Assembly (NCBI GenBank): GCA_964016885.1
Contig: OZ024764.1
Coordinates: forward strand, 1,116,001 to 1,180,000
DNA from: Eledone cirrhosa
Taxonomy: Eukaryota
DNA length: 64,000 nucleotides
Reading direction: 5' to 3'
The notes under the pieces were generated by a model. It saw only the letters and a program-made list of their open reading frames with translations, did not search any database and was not told the origin of the DNA. The translations under genes were made by a program, and so were the position numbers. How positions within the stretch are numbered: position 1 is the stretch's first letter; each line of letters opens with the position of its first letter. Below are positions 5,502-40,873 of this stretch, one piece after another.

Positions 5502-8062
5502 GTGGGGAAGGTGTATGTGTGTATATATATATATATATGTGGGGAAGGTGTATGTGTGTATATATATATATGTGTGGAAGGTGTATGTGTATATATATAT
5601 GTGTGTGTGGAAGGTGTATGTGTATATATATATATGTGTGGGGAGGGTGTATATATATATATATATATATATATATGTGGGGAGGGTGTATGTGTATATA
5701 TATATATATATATATAAGTATTAAATTGTTAAACAATATTCAATGAATTATGTCAAAGAATGAGTTTTACAGTAGATTGGAAGCACTCAACAGTTAAAAA
5801 ATAATTTTCAGGAGTTATTAATATAAGTATTAATAAAATAGATGTTCTTTTGATCAATTACATTTTATTATACATATTTCGGATGTACAACAGTACGTCC
5901 TCATCAGACAAAATATAATGATACATGACATACCCTGAGATGTTAAATGGTTAAGATTTAATTAAGATTTAATCAAGGTAGTACCTTGACTACCTTGATT
6001 AATTTAACATTTAACATCTCAGGGTATGTCATGTATCATTATATTTTGTCTGATGAGGACGTACTGTTGTACATCCGAAATATGTATAATTGTTTCTACT
6101 TTAGACACAAGGCCAGCAAATACCCAGTACATTACTGGTACTTTATTTTATCGACCCCGTAAGGATAATGTTATTGATCAAAATAACATCTATTTTATTA
6201 ATACTTATATATATATATGAGCTCAGGATCTCTTCTCCTTTGAGCACATTATTTACAGGGAATAGCGAGGGCCTATGCCTCCGTTAATTTATCGTGATAT
6301 ATATATATATATATGGCTTAGTGGTTAGAGCATTGGCCTTGCAATCGAAAAGTTGTGAGTTCAATTCTCAGACCGGGTGATGTGTTGTTTCCTTGAGCAA
6401 GACACTTTATTTCACATTGCTCCAGTTTACTCAGCTGTAGAAATGAGATGATAGGGACTGGGGTCCCTATCATTCCACTGCAGAGTGGTCGTGGAGGTGC
6501 CACGGCAAAAAAGCACCCAGCCCACACTGTAAAGTGGTCGTGGAGGTGCCACAGCAAAAAAGCACCCAGCACACACTGTAAAGTGGTCGTGGAGGTGCCA
6601 CGGCAAAAAAGCACCCAGCACACACTGTAAAGTGGTCGTGGAGGTGCCACAGCAAAAAAGCACCCAGCACTCACTGTAAAGTGGTCGTGGAGGTGCCACA
6701 GCAAAAAAGCACCCAGCACTCACTGTAAAGTGGTCGTGGAGGTGCCACGGCAAAAAAGCACCCAGCACACACTGTAAAGTGGTCGTGGAGGTGCCACAGC
6801 AAAAAAGCACCCAGCACTCACTGTAAAGTGGTCGTGGAGGTGCCACGGCAAAAAAGCACCCAGCACTCACTGTAAAGTGGTCGTGGAGGTGCCACAGCAA
6901 AAAAGCACCCAGCACTCACTGTAAAGTGGTCGTGGAGGTGCCACGGCAAAAAAGCACCCAGCCCACACTGTAAAGTGGTCGTGGAGGTGCCACAGCAAAA
7001 AAGCACCCAGCACTCACTGTAAAGTGGTCGTGGAGGTGCCACGGCAAAAAAGCACCCAGCACTCACTGTAAAGTGGTCGTGGAGGTGCCACAGCAAAAAA
7101 GCACCCAGCCCACACTGCAAAGTGGTCGTGGAGGTGCCACAGCAAAAAAGCACCCAGCACTCACTGTAAATGAGGTTGGTGTTAGGAAGGGCATCGAGCT
7201 GTAGAAATCAAGCCAGAATCAGTTCCCGTCCCACCCTTGCAAGCAGGGAGAAGCGGACGTAAAATGAAATGATGATGATGATATATATATATCAGGCAGG
7301 GATATAGCCGTTGCCGTTAGCTGGGTACTACTATCACTACTATAACGGCCGGTGGAAACAAGGTGCTCAGTGCTGTTGTCTTCAATGTAACTGTCATCAA
7401 ACTGTCCATATCTCACGCTCCCTTACAGTTCCGTTTATTGCCCCCACTATCTGCTGGAATCTAGCCACGCATAGACTATTGTTTGGTTCAGGTCAACGCA
7501 ACACAACACAACGGTTATCCTTTGGTAATTTACGACCTTAATTCTGTAGGGAGGTGCCTGAGTCCAGATTCACTAATTGACACATAGGTAGCATTTCACT
7601 CCCAGAAAGAAAAAAAAACAAAAAAAAAAACATGATGGCTGGAAGGGACCCTTTTCGGACCCCCATATGTCTGCCGGGTGTACGAACTGAAGGACATGTT
7701 TCTTTCTACCGGCAGCATTTCACAAAATCGAATTTCATCCAAAGATACCATTCTTGTAACAACAATAAATGCATGAATTACATCTTGATTGCATGGGAGA
7801 ACCGTGGAAATAATCATAAGGAATAAACGATTTATGTCACATCAGCATCTTTCTTAATGTTATTATCATTATAAGGGCAGTGGATTGGCAGTATCGGTAG
7901 AGGTTCGGACGCCATGCTTTGACGCATAGAGTTACGGCCCTTGCCATTCTGAGTTCAAATCCCGCCGAGGTTAACTTTGCCTTTCATCCTTACGGGGTCG
8001 ATAAAATAAAGTACCAGTAATGTACTGGGTAATTTTCTGGCCTTGTGCCAATAGTAGAAACA

Positions 8063-8095
<33 letters not shown>

Positions 8096-11000
8096 CCATA
8101 TACGCACAGACATATATATGAGGGTGTGTGATTCATATTTGTTAATGGATTTGTCACACAAATATCTTTATATATATATATTTATTTCATTTCATTTCAT
8201 TTTTACGTCTGCTTTTCCCTGCTTGCAAGGGTGGGAGGGGAACTGATTGTGGCTTGATTTCTACAGCTGGATGCCCTTCCTAACACCAACCTCATTTACA
8301 GTGAGTTCTGGGTGCTTTTTTGCTGTGGCACCTACACGACCACTTTGCAGTGGAATGATAGGGACCCCAGTCCCTATCATCTCATTTCTACAGCTGAGTA
8401 AACTGGAGCAATGTGAAATAAAGTGTCTTGCTCAAGAAAACAACACATCACCCGGTCTGAGAATTGAACTCACAACCTTTCGATTGCAAGGCCAATGCTC
8501 TAACCACTAAGCCATGCGCCACCATGTATATGTTCACGTCGGTATCGAGGTGTAGAGCTAGACAGTGTGTAGTATAATAAAATAAAACAAGGACGAATGG
8601 TTACTCCTTCATAACGTTTATTGGTTGGTGACACGTGTTTCGCCACCGATCAGCTCAAGGTTCGATCTGTATTGATCTTGCCTGACTCTAATCAGTGGCT
8701 TGTCGGACCTCTGTAAAGTGGTCATGAACCATTGATTACAGAGTCGGGCTAGATCGATACAGATCGAACCTTGAGCTGATCAGTGGTGAAACACGTGTCA
8801 CCAACCAATAAATGTAATGAAGGAGTAACCACTCGTCCTTGTTTTATTTGGTGCACATACATATCATACACAGTGTGTTCCTGGGTATTTAGTACCCTAG
8901 GCTAGCTCTACAATGTATACCTGGGTATTTAGTACCCTAGGTTAGCTCTACAATGTGTACCTGGGTATTTAGTACCCTAGGATAGCTCTACAATGTGTAC
9001 CTGGGTATTTAGTACCCTAGGCTAGCTCTACAATGTATACCTGGGTATTTAGTACCCTAGGCTAGCTCTACAATGTGTACCTGGGTATTTAGTACCCTAG
9101 GTTAGCTCTACAATGTGTACCTGGGCATTTAGTACCCTAGGTTAGCTCTACAATGTATACCTGGGTATTTAGTACCCTAGGTTAGCTCTACAATGTGTAC
9201 CTGGGTATTTAGTACCCTAGGGTAGCTCTACAATGTGTACCTGGGTATTTAGTACCCTAGGCTAGCTCTACAATGTGTACCTGGGTATTTAGTACCCTAG
9301 GATAGCTCTACAATGTGTACCTGGGTATTTAGTACCCTAGGTTAGCTCTACAGTGTATACCTGGGTATTTAGTACCCTAGGTTAGCTCTACATTGTGTAC
9401 CTTGGTATTTAGTACCCTAGGTTAGCTCTACAATGTGTACCTTGGTATTTAGTACCCTAGGTTAGCTCTACAATGTGTACCTGGGTATTTAGTACACTAG
9501 GTTAGCTCTACAATGTGTACCTTGGTATTTAGTACCCTAGGTTAGCTCTACAATGTGTACCTTGGTATTTAGTACCCTAGGTTAGCTCTACAATGTGTAC
9601 CTGGGTATTTAGTACCCTAGGTTAGCTCTACAGTGTATACCTGGGTATTTAGTACCCTAGGTTAGCTCTACAATGTGTACCTTGGTATTTAGAACCCTAG
9701 GTTAGCTCTACAATGTGTACCTGGGTATTTAGTACCCTAGGTTAGCTCTACAGTGTATACCTGGGTATTTAGTACCCTAGGTTAGCTCTACAATGTGTAC
9801 CTTGGTATTTAGTACCCTAGACTAGCTCTACAATGTGTACCTGGGTATTTAGTACCCTAGACTAACTCTACGATGTGTACCTGGGTATTTAGTACCCTAG
9901 ACTAACTCTACAATGTGTACCTGGGTATTTAGTACCCTAGGCTAGCTCTATAATGTATACCTGGGTATTTGGTACCCTAGACTAGCTCTACAATGTGTAC
10001 CTGGGTATTTAGTACCCTAGGTTAGCTCTACAATGTGTACCTGGGTATTTAGTACCCTAGGTTAGCTCTACAATATGTACCTGGGTATTTAGTACCCTAG
10101 ACTAGCTCTACAATGTGTACCTGGGTATTTAGTACCCTAGACTAGCTCTACAAGGTGTACCTGGGTATTTAGTACACTAGGCTAGCTCTACAATGTGTAC
10201 CTGGGTATTTAGTACACTAGGTTAGCTCTACAATGTTTACCTGGGTATTTAGTACCCTAGGTTAGCTCTACAATGTTTACCTGGGTATTTAGTACCCTAG
10301 GCTAGCTCTACAATGTGTACCTGGGTATTTAGTACCCTAGGCTAGCTCTACAATGTGTACCTGGGTATTTAGTACCCTAGGTTAGCTCTACAGTGTGTAC
10401 CTGGGTATTTAGTACCCTAGACTAGCTCTACAATGTGTACCTGGGTATTAAGTACCCTAGGTTAGCTCTACAATGTGTACCTGGGTATTTAGTACCCTAG
10501 GTTAGCTTTACAATGTGTACCTGGGTATTTACTACCCTAGGCTAGCTCTACAATGTGTACCTGGGTATTTAGTACCCTAGACTAACTCTACAATGTGTAC
10601 CTGGGTATTTAGCACCCTAGGCTAGCTCTACAATGTGTACCTGGGTATTTAGTACCCTAGACTAGCTCTACAATGTGTACCTGGGTATTTAGTACCCTAG
10701 GTTAGCTCTACAATGTGTACCTGGGTATTTAGTACCCTAGGCTAGCTCTATAATGTGTACCTGGGTATTTAGCACCCTAGGCTAGCTCTACAATGTGTAC
10801 CTGGGTATTTAGTACCCTAGGTTAGCTCTACAATGTGTACCTGGGTATTTAGTACCCTAGGTTAGCTCTACAATGTGTATCTGGGTATTTAGTGCCCTAG
10901 GCTAGCTCGACAATGTGTACCTTGGTATTTAGTACCCTAGACTAGCTCTACAATGTGTACCTGGGTATTAAGTACCCTAGGTTAGCTCTACAATGTGTAC

Positions 11001-14222: not shown

Positions 14223-17200
14223 GTGATAAAATACCAGGTGGACCATAACCCCACCAGAGTACGCGTTACTTGGGATAGTAGTATATATATCTAAAAAGAT
14301 TCAGGACCACGACAGCTGAGCTCCAGCCATTTCGACAGCTAGTTTGTCCCTGGGTCAAAAACATAAACACTTTTTTTCTTCTGTTTTTTCTTTGCTTGTT
14401 TCCTTAAAGTTTACCATCATTCCATTGGTATACATCTATTATGCAATATACACCTGAAGATGTCACCAGGTTCTTACACAACCTGGCCACTGAAATGTGT
14501 ATAGTGTTTAGAGTAATAAATAATTAAGGAAATTCAACATTTTTGACCTTCTGTAATTTCACTTTATAATACATTTACTCCGTTCCCGCACCTCCAACGT
14601 GATTCAACATAACGTTGAGTGCTTTTCTCATATTACATCATGATTAACATTGCAGAATGAATAATTCTACCCAGTGGTAAACCACCAAATTTAAATGTAT
14701 GTATATGTGTATGTATATATATATATATAATTAGACTTGGTGCTCTGAAATAGCAATCAATATATATATATATATATATATATGAATGTATATACAGTGT
14801 ATTTTGCAATACACTGTATGCTTAATTAAAAGCATTTTGAAGACCTTACGCTATTGTTTTAAAGTAGCGACATGTCACTTACTTCTTTTTTCAGCAAACA
14901 AAGGGAGATAAGCTGACAGATCTGTTGCATACTGTTGGAACTCTTCAGAGCTTACCACTCCCTTTGCTTGCTGAAAATTATGAATGTTGGATTCTTATAG
15001 AATTCCATAAGAATTTGTTTGCTGAAAAAAGAAATAACATAGTCACTACTTTAAAACAATAGTAACTATGTTACTTCTTTAAAATGCTTTTAATTAAGCA
15101 TACAGTGTATTGAAAAATACACTAGATATACATTCATATATATATATGGAGGCACATGGCTTAGTGGTTAGAGCATTGACCTTGCAATCAAAAGGTTGTG
15201 AGTTCAATTCTCAGACTGGATGATGTGTTGTTTCCTTGAGCAAGACACTTTATTTCACATTGCTCCAGTTTACTCAGCTGTAGAAATGAGATGATAGGGA
15301 CTGGGGTCCCTATCATTCCACTGCAAAGTGGTCGTAGAGGTGCCACGGCAAAAAAGCACCCAGCACTCACTGTAAATGAGGTTGGTATTAGGAAGGGCAT
15401 CCAGCTGTAGAAATCAAGCCAGAATCAGTTCCCGTCCCACCCTTGCAAGCAGGGAAAAAGCGGACGTAAAATGAAATGATGATGATGATGATGATATATA
15501 TATGTAAAAAGTAAACAGAAATAACAACACAATCAGTACAGTATATGGAAGGGATATATTAGGTTAACGCTTGATATAGCAGGAAGAGGGTCTTAACGTT
15601 TCGGACGCTAGTCCTTCATGAGAAATAAGATAGATTGAGGGGACGGGCGCAATGGAATTGGAAAAAAATGTCTTTAAATAAAAATAACAGGTCTATTCAT
15701 GTTGACATCTCTTATATATATATATTTATATATATATAATATGTGTGTGTGTGTGTGACCTGGCTTGAATCAGGGGGATAACCACAGTAAGTAAGATACT
15801 CAATACGCAGTAGAGTATATACAATCTATATATATAAAACTGTGGTTGTCTGTCTGTCTATCGATTTTTGGCACACATCTCCTCTTAGAATCTCTCACGG
15901 AATTGCACCGAAATTGCTATACTTGTACATTGAGCCCTAGCGAAGACATCGGAAAAAAAAAATTTCAAATTGACCCACCCTATGTGACGAAATCGAATAT
16001 AATGTATCGATTTTTGAGCGTAAGTGATCAGTTATTTCCCTTTGTTCTGTTTACATTGAGCGTCTTACGTAAAAAATTACGCTGGCTTTCTCAGTCTTTG
16101 TTAATAAATAACCAGTGCAGTTTCTATCCCCAGCATCCTCTTTTGTTATAACATTGGGGTTATCGTTATGTTTTCTTAACTTCATAAGGCATATTGTTGG
16201 TTGAGGGAATATTAATCAAAAACACCACATGCAAGTCTGCACAGTAGACACTACAGTTTTTAAGCCAAAAAAGAAACTTAACATTGTAACTTTAACACAG
16301 CTACTGAGCGACCCCGTTTTGCTTCATTTCCATTTAAAAGCATTTTAAAACAATATTTTTACTTGAAAACAAGTCTATTTAAAGACTACGTAAAACAAGC
16401 AAATATTTCGTCGTTAGGCGTGCAGACAGACAGTCGTGCAGATAGACAGTCGTGCAGAGAGGTGATATAGGCGTGCAGACAGACAGTCGTGCAGAGAGGT
16501 GATATAGGCGTGCAGACAGACAGTCGTGCAGAGAGGTGATATACGCGTGCAGACAGACAGTCGTGCAGAGAGGTGATATACGCGTGCAGACAGACAGTCG
16601 TGCAGAGAGGTGATATAGGCGTGCAGACAGTCGTGCAGAGAGGTGATATAGGCGTGCAGACAGACAGTCGTGCAGAGAGGTGATATACGCGTGCAGAGAG
16701 GTGATATAGGCGTGCAGACAGACATAACTGATAATTTGGTTACGCTAATGTTTTTCTCTGCGTTGCAGTGTTTACATTTTCGATCTTTGTTAATAAATAA
16801 CCAGTGCAGTTTCTATCCCCAGCATCCTCTTTTGTTATAACATTCGGGTTATCGTTATGTTTTCTTAACTTCATAAGGCATATTGTTGGTTGAGGGAATA
16901 TTAATCAAAAACACCACATGCAAGTCTACACAGTAGACACTACAGTTTTTAAGCCAAGAAAGAAACTTAACATTGTAACTTTAACACAGCTACTGAGCGA
17001 CCCCAAGTAACGCTGGGCTTTACTGCTAGTATCTAATATAGAAATGGCTTCTACAGGGCTAGAACTGCTTCATTCGAAAGAAATCACCAGGAAAGCCTTA
17101 ATGATTTCCTTTGAATGAAACAGTTTTAGTCCTGTAGAAGCCATTTTATATTATTATCGTCAAGTGTGAAATTTGTGCAATCTGACCTGGACACAATGCA

Positions 17201-29900: not shown

Positions 29901-30610
29901 CCTCCTTCCTCAGTCATCACATTGATGTTTGTGTATTAGACACCCTCTCCTTCCTCAGTCATCACATAGATGTTTGTGTATTAGGCACCCCCCCTTCCTT
30001 CCTCAGTCATCACATAGATGTTTGTGTATTAGACAACCCCCCCCTCCTTCCTCAGTCATCACATAGATGTTTGTGTATTAGACACCCCCCTCCTTCCTCA
30101 GTCATCACACTATCGTCTGAATTCAAATCGTAATATCGAATCTATGAGATTTTGATATTATTTATTTTGAGAACAATACCTTAACATAAGTATGAGCGGC
30201 CAGTTACAGCCTATTTCAATAGAAAGAGGTGGGGGAATTGTGGCTGGATATGGCTGGTTTAAATGCTAAAGGGTTACATAAGTAGACCTGCCAACCTTAC
30301 CATAAACCTAATGAGCATCTGTATTACATAGATAACCTTCCAAACCACCCTAAATCTATTAAGAAAACAATAGTTAAAGATATTGTTATATTTGGGGAGG
30401 GCCATGTTGTTATAATATTGCCAGAAAAATATAGTAAAACACACTCACTGTTTGGTTTGGTTTTCCCTTCAGTTTATTTTCATATTTTACTGTCTAACCC
30501 ATGCTAACATGGAAGAATGGACGTAAAACGGTGATGAGGATGATGATGATGATGATTTCTATAAATAATTTAGCTGGCAATCAATGTTTATCATTGATTG
30601 ACCAACAGTT

Positions 30611-30654
<44 letters not shown>

Positions 30655-31996
30655 TTTCTCAATGTTCTTTCATCACACATATGTGACTTCATCAGTGATT
30701 ATCATGTTTCCATGTTTCCTCCCATTGTGTTCCAAAAAGCAGGCCTGTAATAAAGTGCATACGTATAAATGTACCTCTGAAAATAATTATAATTACGATA
30801 TATATATAGTATAGACAACGGTAATAGTTATAGTAAAGATATGATGAATAAAGATGAAATATTGAACGAACCCGCTAAGAATATAAAAGATATTAGGAAC
30901 AGTGATCCAGCTGGATCAGTTGGAGATGGTGTCTTCTGACAGGACCTGCTGGGAGGAGATGTTGAGGACTTTCACCCCATGACTCTCTCTCAGGAATAAG
31001 TGGAAGAAGATGAAGGAAAAAAATGATCCACTAACAAACTTACTTGATAACAACACCTGTACAGGAAAAATATTAAACAATAATACAAACCGGAATTGTG
31101 GTAAGTACCAATCACCCAGACAACTTTGGTCAGCTGTTCCGCAAAATTAATTGTGAAGAGGAATACCAATTCTTGCTCATCAGTGGGTGAAGAATTAGTA
31201 TCCTGAACACTTCCAAGTATATTAAAACACTGAATAGTGTGCGTATATATAATAATGCACAAGGTATCTGAACTTAGCGCGTCTCACAAACTCAAACCAC
31301 TAAAAATAGCAGCCAGGTTTACTCGACTTTTGAATTAGCTCAACAAATTAACGGAGCCGAATATATCAAAGGTATATATTGAGTTAGAAACTGTCTGGGT
31401 GATTGGTAGTTACCACAGTTACTGTTTGTATTTATTTTCTTGATTTATTCTTAAATTGAGTCTGGAAAACCCTATTGTCTATAGTTAGTATTTTTTTTCA
31501 CCTTAGCGAATCTGGTCCCTTACGATTTGAATACATATATGTATATGTCTGTGTTCGTTTTTCTTTTATATATTTGTATATATCTTTGTTGGTAAAATGC
31601 AGATATATTTTGCTTTTGTGTCTATATATATATATATGTATATAGATATAAAGATGGCTTTTGCAGACCCATCGAAACCGGTCATTTTTAAGACCCTTTA
31701 TTCTTTCCTTACCTTATAAAATTATGTTTTTTCACAAAAAAGTATTCTGTCTCTTATATATTCCATGTGCCATTACCAACCTCAATTTTCTCTATAACCT
31801 TCGTTTTGTGTAGAAACTTACACTTTTCATATATATATATATATAGAGAGAGATTTTGAGTATATGTTGGTTGTATACCAACACCTCAGTATGCAGGCTG
31901 GAGCACTTGACGAAGTGCGCAGGTTGGTTTGGTTACTCCAGAGTAATGTAAAATAAATGAAGCTAAATTTTAAACATTTGACTTTTTATTTAACTT

Positions 31997-34365: not shown

Positions 34366-35316
34366 TACACTATATATATGTTGTCCAAGGGAAAGGTAAT
34401 GGCTGACACAGCTTGGCACCAGTGACATTACAACATATATATATATTATATACACTACTATATATATACTTTATACACCATATATATATACACTACACTA
34501 TATATGTTGTCCAAGAGAAAGGCAATGGCTGCTACAGCTTGGTACCAGTGACATCACAACATATATATATATACACTACACTATATATGTTGTCCAAGAG
34601 AAAGGCAATGGCTGCTACAGCTTGGTACCTGTATATACATTACATACATATTATATATACAATTTATACACTACATTTAGACTATATATACACTATACAT
34701 TATAAACATATCATATATATATATACTTTATATACCATATATACACTACACTATATATGTTGTCTAAGGGAAAGGTAATGGCTGATACAGCTTGGTACCA
34801 GTGACATAGCATATATATATATATATGTAGAAGTTGTATTTAATTTGTTGGAATTCCGACATATATAAATGTTTATAACTGATATAGAGCACTCAACAGT
34901 TTACTGGAATAAATATTCCAAATATTAAATAAATGGAAACTATATTTATAAAACCATATTTATTTTATTATATATATTTCAAGGGCGACCAAGACAATAT
35001 TGGTGCGGCTTCATCAGATAAAATACAAAATTTGTTTTATAAATAAAGACGTTCCCATGGAAATCATAACCTTAACAAATTTCCATCCATTAAGGTTATG
35101 ATTACCATGGGTACGTCTTTATTTATAAAACAAATTTTGTATTTTATCTGATGAAAGCGCACCAATATTGTCTTGGTCGCCCTTGAAATATATATAATAA
35201 AATAAATATGGTTTTATAAATATAGTTTCCATTTATTTAATATCTTGATATATATATATATATATATATATAGTATAGACTTATTATATATATATATATA
35301 TATATAGTATAGACTT

Positions 35317-37929: not shown

Positions 37930-38829
37930 CTCACATGCTGAGGGGGGGGAGGGGAACGGGGAGGGATATATATATAAACATCTAGCTATAGATATATATA
38001 TATATAGATAGATAGATATATAAATATATATATATATTTAAATATCTATATGTTACATATATATATATATACATAAATATATACATATATATATATCTGT
38101 ATATATATATATATATACATAAATATATAAATATATACATATATATATCTGTATATATACATAGATATATCTGTATATATATATATATATATATACATAA
38201 ATATATAAATATATACATATATATATACATAGATAAATCTGTATATATAAATATATATATATATATAATGATGATAATAATAATGAGCAGGAAGGAAGTA
38301 TCACTATACATCATTATGTTTCTTCATACGTGAGGCATGTTTCACGATCTATCTGCTCAAGGTACTATAGCTAATGATCAGAGGTCGAACTCTAGAATCG
38401 ATAGCTTATCAAGAATCTCCAAATCTGATGAGGTATCAATATCAGATTTCCAGAGAGCGATACCAATCATTGTTGATCGTGAAATACGCCTCACATGTGA
38501 ATAAACATAAATGATTTTATATTGATACGTAATTCCAGCTCGTTGTTGTTGTTGTTGTTGTTATTATTATTATTATTATTATTAACACTCTGCCTGTTAA
38601 GGATACTGACTATGGCGAAATAGCTAACTTAGAATAACACAATGGTAGCCTTACCCACATATTAGTATTGAGTGCTCAAACTGGTGTACTGTCGGTTACT
38701 AATACACTATATGTATATATTGCCATAGAGATCCTTATTTGTTGGGTGTTGCCGCCAAGACACGTTCAAAGCAGCACGGAGCATACCTGTGTTTGCCCCG
38801 TCTAGCTTTTTCTCCAGATTCGACGTTAG

Positions 38830-39062: not shown

Positions 39063-39207
39063 ATATATATATGTGTGTGTGCGTGTGTATATATTGAAAA
39101 TAAAGCCAAGTTTCACATTAACGTCTTTATTAATGTGAAACCTCACTTTGTTTTTCAATATATACACATACTTACATACTTACTACACCCTCTTTGTTAT
39201 ATATATA

Positions 39208-39785
39208 TATATTGTTATACTTGGGAAGGGTCATATTGTTGTAATAATATTGCCAGAAATAATAACAGAACACACTCACTGTTTGGTTGGTTTTCGCTTC
39301 TGTATCTTTTATATCTCCACAGTTAATTTATTCGGTCCTCAATGTTTACCATTGACTGACCAACGGTCAAAAATACAGATATAATATAGATATAAACACA
39401 TATATATAGTCTAACAAAGTTCTTTCGTTGCACATCTGCAACATCATCAGTGGTACTATTATGTTTCCTCCTGTTGTATTGTTTGTCTATGCCAGAAAAA
39501 TGGTATAGACATACAATACAACAGGAGGAACATAATAGTACCACTGATGATGTTGCAGATGTGCAACGAAAGAACTTTGTTAGACTATATATATGTGTTT
39601 ATATCTATATTATATCTGTATTTTTGACCGTTGGTCAGTCAATGATAAACATTGAGGACCGAATAAATTAACTGTGGAGATATAAAAGATACAGAAGCGA
39701 AAACCAACCAAACAGTGAGTGTGTTCTGTTATTATTTCTGGCAATATTATTACAACAATATGACCCTTCCCAAGTATAACAATAT
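39208..39785. mobile_element. Near-perfect ~580-bp palindrome with two outward-facing hammerheads (39406-39459 minus, 39535-39588 plus)
   Basis: Arms of ~280 bp are almost identical; AUAGU-AC-CA CUGAUGA U GUUGCA-GAUG-UGCAAC GAAA GAAC UU UG-UUAG-ACUAU. A diverged single-arm relative lies at ~30380-30725. Confidence 0.85.
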
Positions 39786-40873
39786 TTGTTTCGACACAGG
39801 ATTTCATATAAAATACCTCGCAAAACAAATATATATATATACATACACACACACATATATGCATACATATATATACACATACATACATACATATATATAT
39901 ATATATACATACACATATATATATATACATACATATATATATATACATATATATACACATAAATATATGTATACATACATATATATATACACATACATAT
40001 ATATATATACATACATATATATACATATACATATATATATACATACACATATACATACATATATATATATGTATACATATATATATATGTATACATATAT
40101 ATATATGTATACATATATATATATTGGTGGCTGCCAACTCGTTTTCGAGTACGGCCACTACTTTATATCCATGGAGGAGAACCCCTACCGATGCGCTGAA
40201 CGAGTGTGACTTTTTAGTCCAGCCAGCGACTTGAAAACTCTGGTACAAACACTACACTTGTGACAATTATTGACACATAGTGCTGGGCCCATGGTACCAT
40301 GTGACAAGTGCAGAGAGATCTCCAGATATAAAGCAATGCCTGTGCCGTGAAGCTTTTATAGTGAGCAAAGGCACTGCACAAAGCCAGTCCCACTCTCTTA
40401 ACCAAGATGATATTTACCAAAAAGAAGAACAAGTCAACATCATTGGATACCATCAGGGTTGCAGGTGTTATATCAGAGTTTTCCTTCTCCTAGAATTCTG
40501 CCTTGACAAAGGCTAAGGGGTCATCTCTCCCGGTGATTTTGGATGGCCATTGACTCTTAAGAGCTCCTTTGCCCTTTGACAGGTTTTGTTTTTAGTCCTG
40601 CAGGATGTCCAAAGTCACCCTCCTCACCAAGACACCTTGGTGGGGTTGCCAGTTTAGTCACCAACGACCCGACCATGAGTCATGTATACATACATACATG
40701 CGACATGTATACATACATACATGAGACATGTATACATACATACATGAGACATGTATACATACATACATGAGACATGTATACATACATGTATGTATACATA
40801 CACGTATGTATACATACATACATGCATATATGTATACATACATATATATATCTGTAGATACATATATATATCT

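What the first reader, a model, noticed from the sequence alone, without database searches (positions are those of the whole stretch)
39208..39785. Recurrent architecture: short palindrome carrying two outward-facing hammerheads
Seen: at 5821-6210, 8578-8849, 17040-17150, 34915-35250 and 39208-39785 (partly also 14780-15140, 31085-31435, 38313-38512) the left arm has a minus-strand hammerhead and the right arm its plus-strand mirror, joined head-to-head. The 39.2-39.8 kb copy has ~280-bp almost identical arms, so it is young. Established: PLE insertions often have an inverted 3' segment at the 5' side. Inference: a MITE-like fold-back unit made only of two PLE 3' ends. Any transcript through it contains one ribozyme plus its antisense, so it can either self-cleave or form a long dsRNA hairpin. 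This differs from the tandem arrangement of described non-LTR retrozymes.
Basis: partly seen in the sequence, partly recalled or inferred. Interest (0 to 1): 0.75.

Follow-up and report, generated by a model that had tools for sequence, protein, structure and literature searches.

The report
Penelope stub marking RNA 5' ends
This 620-base palindrome is two back-to-back copies of the ribozyme-bearing end of an abundant Penelope-like jumping gene, a known insertion shape and not a separate mobile unit; its sister copies suggest that each arm is likely copied separately from RNA, often back to the likely capped start or to the predicted ribozyme cut.

Summary
The palindrome and its two outward-facing hammerhead motifs are real (arms 39210-39494 and 39496-39784, 4 differences). 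Each arm is the end repeat (pLTR) of an RT plus GIY-YIG Penelope-like element (PLE). The shape is in print: inverted truncated copy, one-sided tail, and hammerheads on opposite strands 100-700 bp apart. The MITE-like unit is not supported. All 23 short palindromes examined have different junctions, 54 of 60 head-to-head pairs carry exactly one tail, and in 27 of 49 neither arm can be a copy of the other. Only 3 of the 8 listed loci have two intact cores, and they are unrelated families. The side result is the interesting part. Copy starts pile up at a site with an extra G (42 G against 17 C junctions; likely the cap) and at the predicted ribozyme cut (6 of 98 unselected copies; 24 of 30 pattern hits checked). 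My searches did not find this in print. This scan's unreviewed notes report the same for other DNA, this genome included. No RNA data; this locus's junction was not confirmed in reads.

The parts
39199..39209 (.). Left (TA)n tract, 11 nt; candidate target-site duplication
   Evidence: Identical to 39831-39841; lies in a microsatellite, so not proof
39210..39494 (-). Left arm: inverted pLTR copy, short 3' end, begins 5 nt inside the likely RNA start
39406..39459 (-). Minimal type I hammerhead motif of the left arm (core from 39450; predicted cut between 39417 and 39416)
   Evidence: limits mirrored from the right arm
39495..39495 (+). Single G at the head-to-head junction, where read-through copies mostly have T; likely cap-derived
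   Evidence: family statistics
39496..39784 (+). Right arm: pLTR copy starting at the hot-spot start site (likely transcription start)
39535..39588 (+). Minimal type I hammerhead motif: core 39544-39550, unpaired U39551, stem II 39552-39567, GAAA 39568-39571, one-pair helix III, CUU triplet 39575-39577, predicted cut between 39577 and 39578, interrupted stem I
   Evidence: not the minimum-energy fold; activity untested
39760..39828 (+). Candidate first 23 codons of the element's ORF, carried in the pLTR and tail
   Evidence: Open frame from an ATG; no copy linking it to the ORF body found; inferred from PMC3846280 and PMC11167929
39785..39830 (+). One-sided tail (46 nt) between two of the family's fixed 3' ends
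39831..39841 (.). Right (TA)n tract, 11 nt; candidate target-site duplication
34880..35257 (.). Unrelated family with the same shape: two cores, tail on the left arm; one genomic copy has GIY-YIG-like coding sequence upstream
   Evidence: (L386)
5821..6210 (.). Third family: two cores, right arm interrupted by an abundant repeat; junctions vary among 25 loci; no ORF found within 1.5 kb
30380..30708 (-). Diverged single-arm relative of the 39.2-kb family (78-83% identity)

Best explanation
This is a stub-sized insertion of an endonuclease-bearing Penelope-like element whose two arms were likely reverse-transcribed separately, one from each end of a cut in a (TA)n tract, and then joined head to head at that insertion. 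Inferred steps: (1) the GIY-YIG endonuclease cuts both strands of (TA)n. (2) Each DNA end primes reverse transcription, one at the proximal and one at the distal internal start site, so one arm gets the tail. (3) The template is usually the same RNA, or RNA from the same source copy. (4) Each cDNA stops at random or at a natural 5' end of the RNA: the likely capped start, leaving an extra G as here, or in a minority the ribozyme cut. (5) The two ends are joined by microhomology, short templated insertions or local snap-back. Shown directly: family identity, unique junctions, tail asymmetry, arm kinship and the start hot spots.
For: Arm is the 3' part of long RT plus GIY-YIG copies. 23 of 23 junctions differ, with 15 spacer lengths. 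54 of 60 head-to-head pairs have exactly one tail (binomial p 5e-11). In 27 of 49 decidable pairs the tailed arm is the shorter one at the 5' end, so neither arm contains the other. Arms share rare alleles (1.04 per pair against 0.075 for random pairs) and disagree at 70 of 760 diagnostic sites against 43% at random. G precedes the start site in 42 junctions and C in 17 (p 0.0015); 33 against 14 when partner-templated cases are left out. T>G changes are rarer than T>C (68 against 234). Several palindromes have the G on both arms (L041, L055, L063). 6 of 98 unselected copies start within 4 positions at the predicted cut, against 19 over the other 116 positions (p 6e-5). 24 of 30 cut-site pattern hits examined, of 50, are true junctions. 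In vitro, the anole PLE protein cuts and extends both strands and starts at two sites (PMC11167929).
Against: No RNA run was laid, so cap, start site and cleavage are inferred from DNA. The junction of this locus was not covered by the four short-read contig sets. Arm kinship could also come from gene conversion or assembly polishing. L051 and L151 have arms of different subfamily type, so one RNA is not a rule. The window's own junction recurs 7 times genome-wide, window included, and 4 of these have one arm of only 12-45 nt, which fits hairpin snap-back. The control site 3 nt upstream of the cut also gave 10 junctions in 17 hits, although 8 of the 10 overlap the partner enough to lie at the cut. 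No control downstream of the cut was run. A (TA)n flank supplies a matching T at the cut position, which inflates that count by roughly 1.6-fold (my estimate). The hammerhead fold is not the minimum-energy fold (-7.4 against -12.1 kcal/mol), and PMC11167929 found no RNA reads ending at its cut site.
Confidence: 0.72

Rival explanations
1. One cDNA folds back on itself (snap-back or self-priming, as Arkhipova et al. 2013 proposed with an antisense template), and the second arm is its copy, trimmed by the endonuclease at the tail boundary.
For: Arms are close kin. The window's junction recurs, and in 4 of 7 cases leaves only a 12-45-nt inverted stub, as an off-centre hairpin opening would. The window's own geometry, with the tailed arm also longer at the 5' end, is compatible.
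Against: In 27 of 49 pairs each arm has sequence that the other lacks. Junctions with a loop of only 1-2 nt and both arms complete (L063, L272, L283, L292) do not fit fold-back. Two pairs have discordant arms.
Confidence: 0.17
2. One reading: a MITE-like fold-back unit of two PLE ends that moves as a whole.
For: The window's 18-nt junction motif has 6 other matches. Short palindromes are frequent (22 exact pattern hits).
Against: Those 7 differ in subfamily alleles, tail side and arm length. 23 of 23 junctions differ. Partners range from tail-only pieces to over 1 kb. No hyper-edited arm among 430.
Confidence: 0.04
3. The start hot spots are not natural RNA ends but places where reverse transcriptase stalls (A-rich tract, folded ribozyme core) or where microhomology to AT-rich DNA favours joining; the insertion is otherwise a two-ended PLE stub.
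For: Starts near the G site spread over -22 to -1 in an A-rich tract (15 of 98). The region around the ribozyme folds into a hairpin. The G excess is only 2.5-fold.
Against: The peak falls on the base predicted from hammerhead rules. In 6 of 10 cut-site palindromes the partner also starts within 4 nt of the cut, against 0 of 36 unselected partners (one starts 5 nt away; window drawn after seeing the data). Stalling does not explain an extra G.
Confidence: 0.25
4. The palindrome is a fold-back assembly chimera.
For: The junction and left flank of this locus were not covered at 98% by contigs of runs X1-X4; this is inconclusive.
Against: The arms differ at 4 places, only one has the tail, and the flanks are not mirrored. 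Other head-to-head joints of this family occur in raw reads of three animals (39496 to 39768; 117, 109 and 157 reads, one start each) and in three short-read contigs.
Confidence: 0.02

Closest known systems
Insertion units of C-terminal EN+ Penelope-like elements (Craig et al. 2021, PMC8557442, passages; Arkhipova et al. 2013, PMC3846280, passages; Schostak et al. 2008, PMC2377424, passages)
   Same: Inverted 5'-truncated copy next to the 5' end, tail at one end only, (TA)n target, hammerhead in the pLTR, first ORF codons in pLTR and tail (inferred here), short palindromes at inverted junctions.
   Different: Both arms are reduced to the pLTR; the tail is 46 nt and there is a third, longer 3' end; the ORF exceeds 1000 aa. 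The passages read give no junction counts, and PMC3846280 favours self-priming on an antisense template.
Minimal hammerheads of metazoan PLEs (Cervera and de la Pena 2014, PMC4209133, parts 1-2 of 4)
   Same: Core, unpaired base before stem II, G10.1-C11.1 pair, palindromic 15.2-16.2; the paper reports dual motifs 100-700 bp apart on opposite strands in Schistosoma.
   Different: The paper reports low activity in vitro and no in vivo evidence; here insertion starts pile up at the predicted cut.
Poseidon element PAc of Anolis (Frangieh et al. 2024, PMC11167929, parts 1-2 of 4)
   Same: Cuts and extends both strands, AT-rich targets, two internal RT start sites that define the tail, predicted dimer.
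   Different: PAc's ORF starts inside the hammerhead; uncut RNA was the dominant substrate and no reads ended at the cut. This family has a CX4CxxC linker, which PMC8557442 says Penelope/Poseidon lack.
Animal non-LTR retrozymes (bioRxiv 10.64898/2026.07.22.740005, part 1 of 5 and passages; PMC7229834, search listing only)
   Same: Non-coding, type I hammerhead, related to PLE pLTRs.
   Different: Retrozymes are head-to-tail tandems. This is head-to-head and continuous with a coding element.
MITEs of DNA transposons (recalled)
   Same: Short, non-coding, palindromic, in TA-rich sites.
   Different: No shared internal junction, asymmetric ends, and the arms belong to a retroelement.

Membership tests
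EN+ Penelope-like element | Single ORF with RT followed by a C-terminal GIY-YIG endonuclease, upstream of the pLTR | tested here: met
   L024/L046, L185-L190: open frames up to 1204 codons stop to stop (partly flank), YVDD in L046, VYSIRC..C..YIGET; Atlas neighbours at 0.95-0.97 carry RVT_1 or GIY-YIG; Pfam gave no RT or GIY-YIG hit, NCBIfam weak RT hits
EN+ Penelope-like element | Inverted 5'-truncated copy next to the 5' end | tested here: met
   36 of 98 unselected copies
EN+ Penelope-like element | Optional tail at one end | tested here: met
   54 of 60 pairs have exactly one
EN+ Penelope-like element | Partial tandem: direct pLTR upstream of a full ORF, holding its first codons | tested here: inconclusive
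   None among 10 long-ORF loci or 25 of 85 long-tail loci; candidate ATG at 39760
Neptune/Nematis-type PLE clades | CX2-5CxxC linker and two cysteines between GIY and YIG | tested here: met
   CTNRKCIIC and VYSIRCTEGTC..YIG in L188, against PMC8557442
Neptune/Nematis-type PLE clades | RT phylogenetic placement | not tested
   No reference PLE proteins were fetched
Minimal type I hammerhead | CUGANGA, stem II, GAAA, UH, stem I | tested here: met
   stem I is interrupted; no Rfam hit
Minimal type I hammerhead | Self-cleavage | not testable with these tools
   Only indirect: insertion starts at the predicted cut
MITE-like unit mobilised as a whole | Copies share the internal junction and length | tested here: not met
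   23 of 23 junctions differ; the one recurrent junction lies in unlike copies
MITE-like unit mobilised as a whole | Symmetric terminal inverted repeats | tested here: not met
   One-sided tail
Non-LTR retrozyme | Head-to-tail tandem units, each with a hammerhead | tested here: not met
   Arms are head to head; no tandem unit at this locus

The most novel reading that the evidence does not exclude
The genome records the PLE insertion reaction. A PLE protein dimer primes both cut DNA ends at two start sites of one RNA and copies back to that RNA's natural 5' end, either the cap or the hammerhead cut. So a minimal hammerhead with a weak CUU triplet does cleave in the germline, and cut RNA is used as template.
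Probability: 0.5. Interest if true: 0.75.

Novelty: new member of a known kind. Interest (0 to 1): 0.48.

Why it matters
The structure itself is ordinary for Penelope-like elements, which removes a proposed new element class. But how these elements build their inverted ends, and whether their hammerheads act in vivo, are stated as open in PMC8557442, PMC4209133 and PMC11167929. The junction counts give two exact bases (39496 and 39578) and a tail rule that RNA end mapping and an in vitro PLE system can test directly.

Tried and rejected
Rfam: no hammerhead model hit. Pfam: no RT or GIY-YIG hit on two ORF pieces; PDB only weak RT and TERT matches, E 0.07-0.6. Sequencing runs: no RNA holder listed, which says nothing on expression. 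Contigs X1-X4 did not cover this locus's junction or left flank: inconclusive. No full-length element with an upstream direct pLTR was found. No coding sequence was linked to the families at 5821, 8578, 17040 or 14780 within 1.5 kb; the two ORF hits are neighbouring copies of the 39.2-kb family. A-to-G hyper-editing: 0 of 430 arms. The first start-mapping script failed and was redone. In one search the starts of L150, L204 and L240 are unreliable (reference gaps), L225/L226 look like duplicates, and 2 of the first 100 listed hits were left out. The 60 pairs come from loci picked by several patterns; one of the two tail-tail pairs (L038) has a broken end, and three pairs in the kinship tables (L052, one L116 pair, one L252 pair) are not adjacent arms. 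6 G and 2 C pattern hits dropped out as duplicates or unplaced. An alternative cut after 39582 was considered; starts do not peak there. Literature searches for a two-ended model, a cap G or cut-site starts in PLEs listed no paper reporting them; most subscription papers and all supplements were unseen, and PMC1142468 is not held.

Full report
Observation. The window lies in a 3.0-Gb assembly (G000:C25); earlier scan notes call it octopus-type, which I did not test. The palindrome is real: arms 39210-39494 and 39496-39784 around one G, with 3 substitutions and 1 indel in 286 nt. Each arm has a CTGATGA-stem II-GAAA core facing outward. The right arm runs on into a 46-nt tail, and both ends abut an 11-nt TA tract.

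What the arms are. The right arm has 3065 first-look candidates in the genome, 40 of them scored. Many copies continue upstream through a shared non-coding stretch into a long frame. [quoted passage not shown] Atlas neighbours carry RVT_1 and GIY-YIG; Pfam was blank. This is the pLTR of an EN+ Penelope-like element with a Neptune/Nematis-type linker (PMC8557442, passages); no tree was built. The family has three fixed 3' ends next to (TA)n: short, tail and a longer one. The 34.9-kb family behaves alike, and one of its copies has GIY-YIG-like coding sequence upstream. The 5.8-kb family has varied junctions but no linked ORF within 1.5 kb.

Unit, or made at each insertion? A pattern for two cores 70-100 nt apart gave 22 loci. 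With L008, all 23 junctions differ, over 15 spacer lengths. Of 476 exact hits of an internal motif I analysed 98 of the first 100 listed: 36 have an adjacent inverted partner, of very varied extent. The window's junction motif recurs at 6 other places, but those copies differ in subfamily alleles, tail side and arm length. I read that as repeated formation at a hot spot. The MITE reading therefore fails. The shape is in print: PMC8557442 describes the inverted truncated copy and one-sided tail, and PMC4209133 reports paired hammerheads 100-700 bp apart on opposite strands.

How the two arms arise. In 60 head-to-head pairs with both outer ends, 54 have exactly one tail, 4 none and 2 both (p 5e-11 against 50%). 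In 49 pairs with unequal 5' ends, the tailed arm reaches further in 22 and is shorter in 27. In those 27, neither arm can be a copy of the other, which argues against fold-back of one cDNA as the general route (proposed in PMC3846280). Yet the arms are kin: distance 5.5% against 9.4% for random pairs, 1.04 shared rare alleles against 0.075, and 9% against 43% discordance at diagnostic sites. L051 and L151 are exceptions, and gene conversion is not excluded. The simplest model is priming from both cut ends at two start sites, usually on one RNA or on RNA of one source, followed by end joining. PMC11167929 shows cutting and extension of both strands and two start sites in vitro. The short templated insertions at junctions resemble polymerase-theta joining (recalled). 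A snap-back route remains plausible for a subset: 4 of the 7 recurrent junctions keep only a 12-45-nt stub, and this locus fits either route.

Where copies start. Fifteen of 98 start in the 22 nt before 39500. The base before 39496 is G in 63 and C in 39 exact hits. After removing read-through copies this is 42 of 57 against 17 of 37 (p 0.0015), or 33 against 14 when the partner could have supplied the base. An extra G is the mark of a copied cap in other retroelements (recalled; the paper I tried is not held). The window's right arm is of this type, so it likely reaches the RNA's capped start and was copied through an uncut hammerhead.

A second peak lies at the predicted cut. Hammerhead rules put the cleavage after CUU 39577. 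Six of 98 unselected copies start within 4 positions there, against 19 over the other 116 positions (p 6e-5). A targeted pattern gave 50 hits, and 24 of the 30 examined are junctions. A control 3 nt upstream gave 17 hits and 10 junctions, 8 of which overlap the partner enough to lie at the cut. In 6 of 10 cut-site palindromes the partner also starts within 4 nt of the cut, against 0 of 36 unselected partners (window chosen after seeing the data, and one unselected partner starts 5 nt away). RT stalling and T microhomology are the rivals, and no downstream control was run. PMC11167929 found no RNA ends at its element's cut, and PMC4209133 found low activity in vitro.

Reads. No RNA holder was listed. 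Raw RAD reads of three animals hold a strand-changing joint at 39496, and short-read contigs hold three other head-to-head joints, so the shape is not an assembly artefact in general. This locus's own junction was not covered. No arm of 430 is A-to-G hyper-edited.

Earlier notes and verdict. My reading was recorded before the first look-up. Unreviewed notes of this scan describe the same stub, cap and cut-site signatures in this and other genomes; they are not independent support. My paper searches listed no report of the cap G, the cut-site starts or the tail rule in PLEs; supplements and most subscription papers were unseen. Verdict: a new member of a known kind. The proposed unit is not supported, but the mechanistic side result is testable. 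Interest 0.48.

Noticed in passing
window 6313-6533/8295-8515 and 13058-13307/15174-15423: Inverted pairs of a repeat 1.8 kb apart, with weak tRNA-model hits at 6314, 8457 and 15155; probably tRNA-derived SINE copies in opposite orientation.
   Followed up: no
window 6086-6166: An 80-nt piece of an abundant repeat, with over a dozen matches in the window, interrupts the right arm of the 5.8-kb palindrome just behind the hammerhead core; L388 and L395 show the same insertion point.
   Followed up: partly
window 8760-8830: Hammerhead-like motif with CTGATCA, almost no stem II, and a palindromic GAAACACGTGTCA helix III, weakly similar to 38313-38512; a variant or decayed ribozyme.
   Followed up: partly
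L103-L127: A third fixed 3' end about 14 nt beyond the tail: 85 exact hits, and 24 of 25 examined abut TA repeats, suggesting three RT start sites.
   Followed up: partly
L185 ORF; The family has 8363 first-look candidates for one ORF segment, many long open frames at 87-91% identity, and an asparagine-rich stretch in the N-terminal part, recalling the N-rich inserts of Adineta PLEs (PMC3846280).
   Followed up: no
window 39496-39508: The start hot spot overlaps an AANATGGCG word that resembles a YY1 site (recalled, not tested).
   Followed up: no
L158, L159, L161, L163: Single arms preceded by a 12-45-nt inverted stub that includes the extra base, like P-nucleotides from an opened hairpin.
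   Followed up: partly
   Followed up: no
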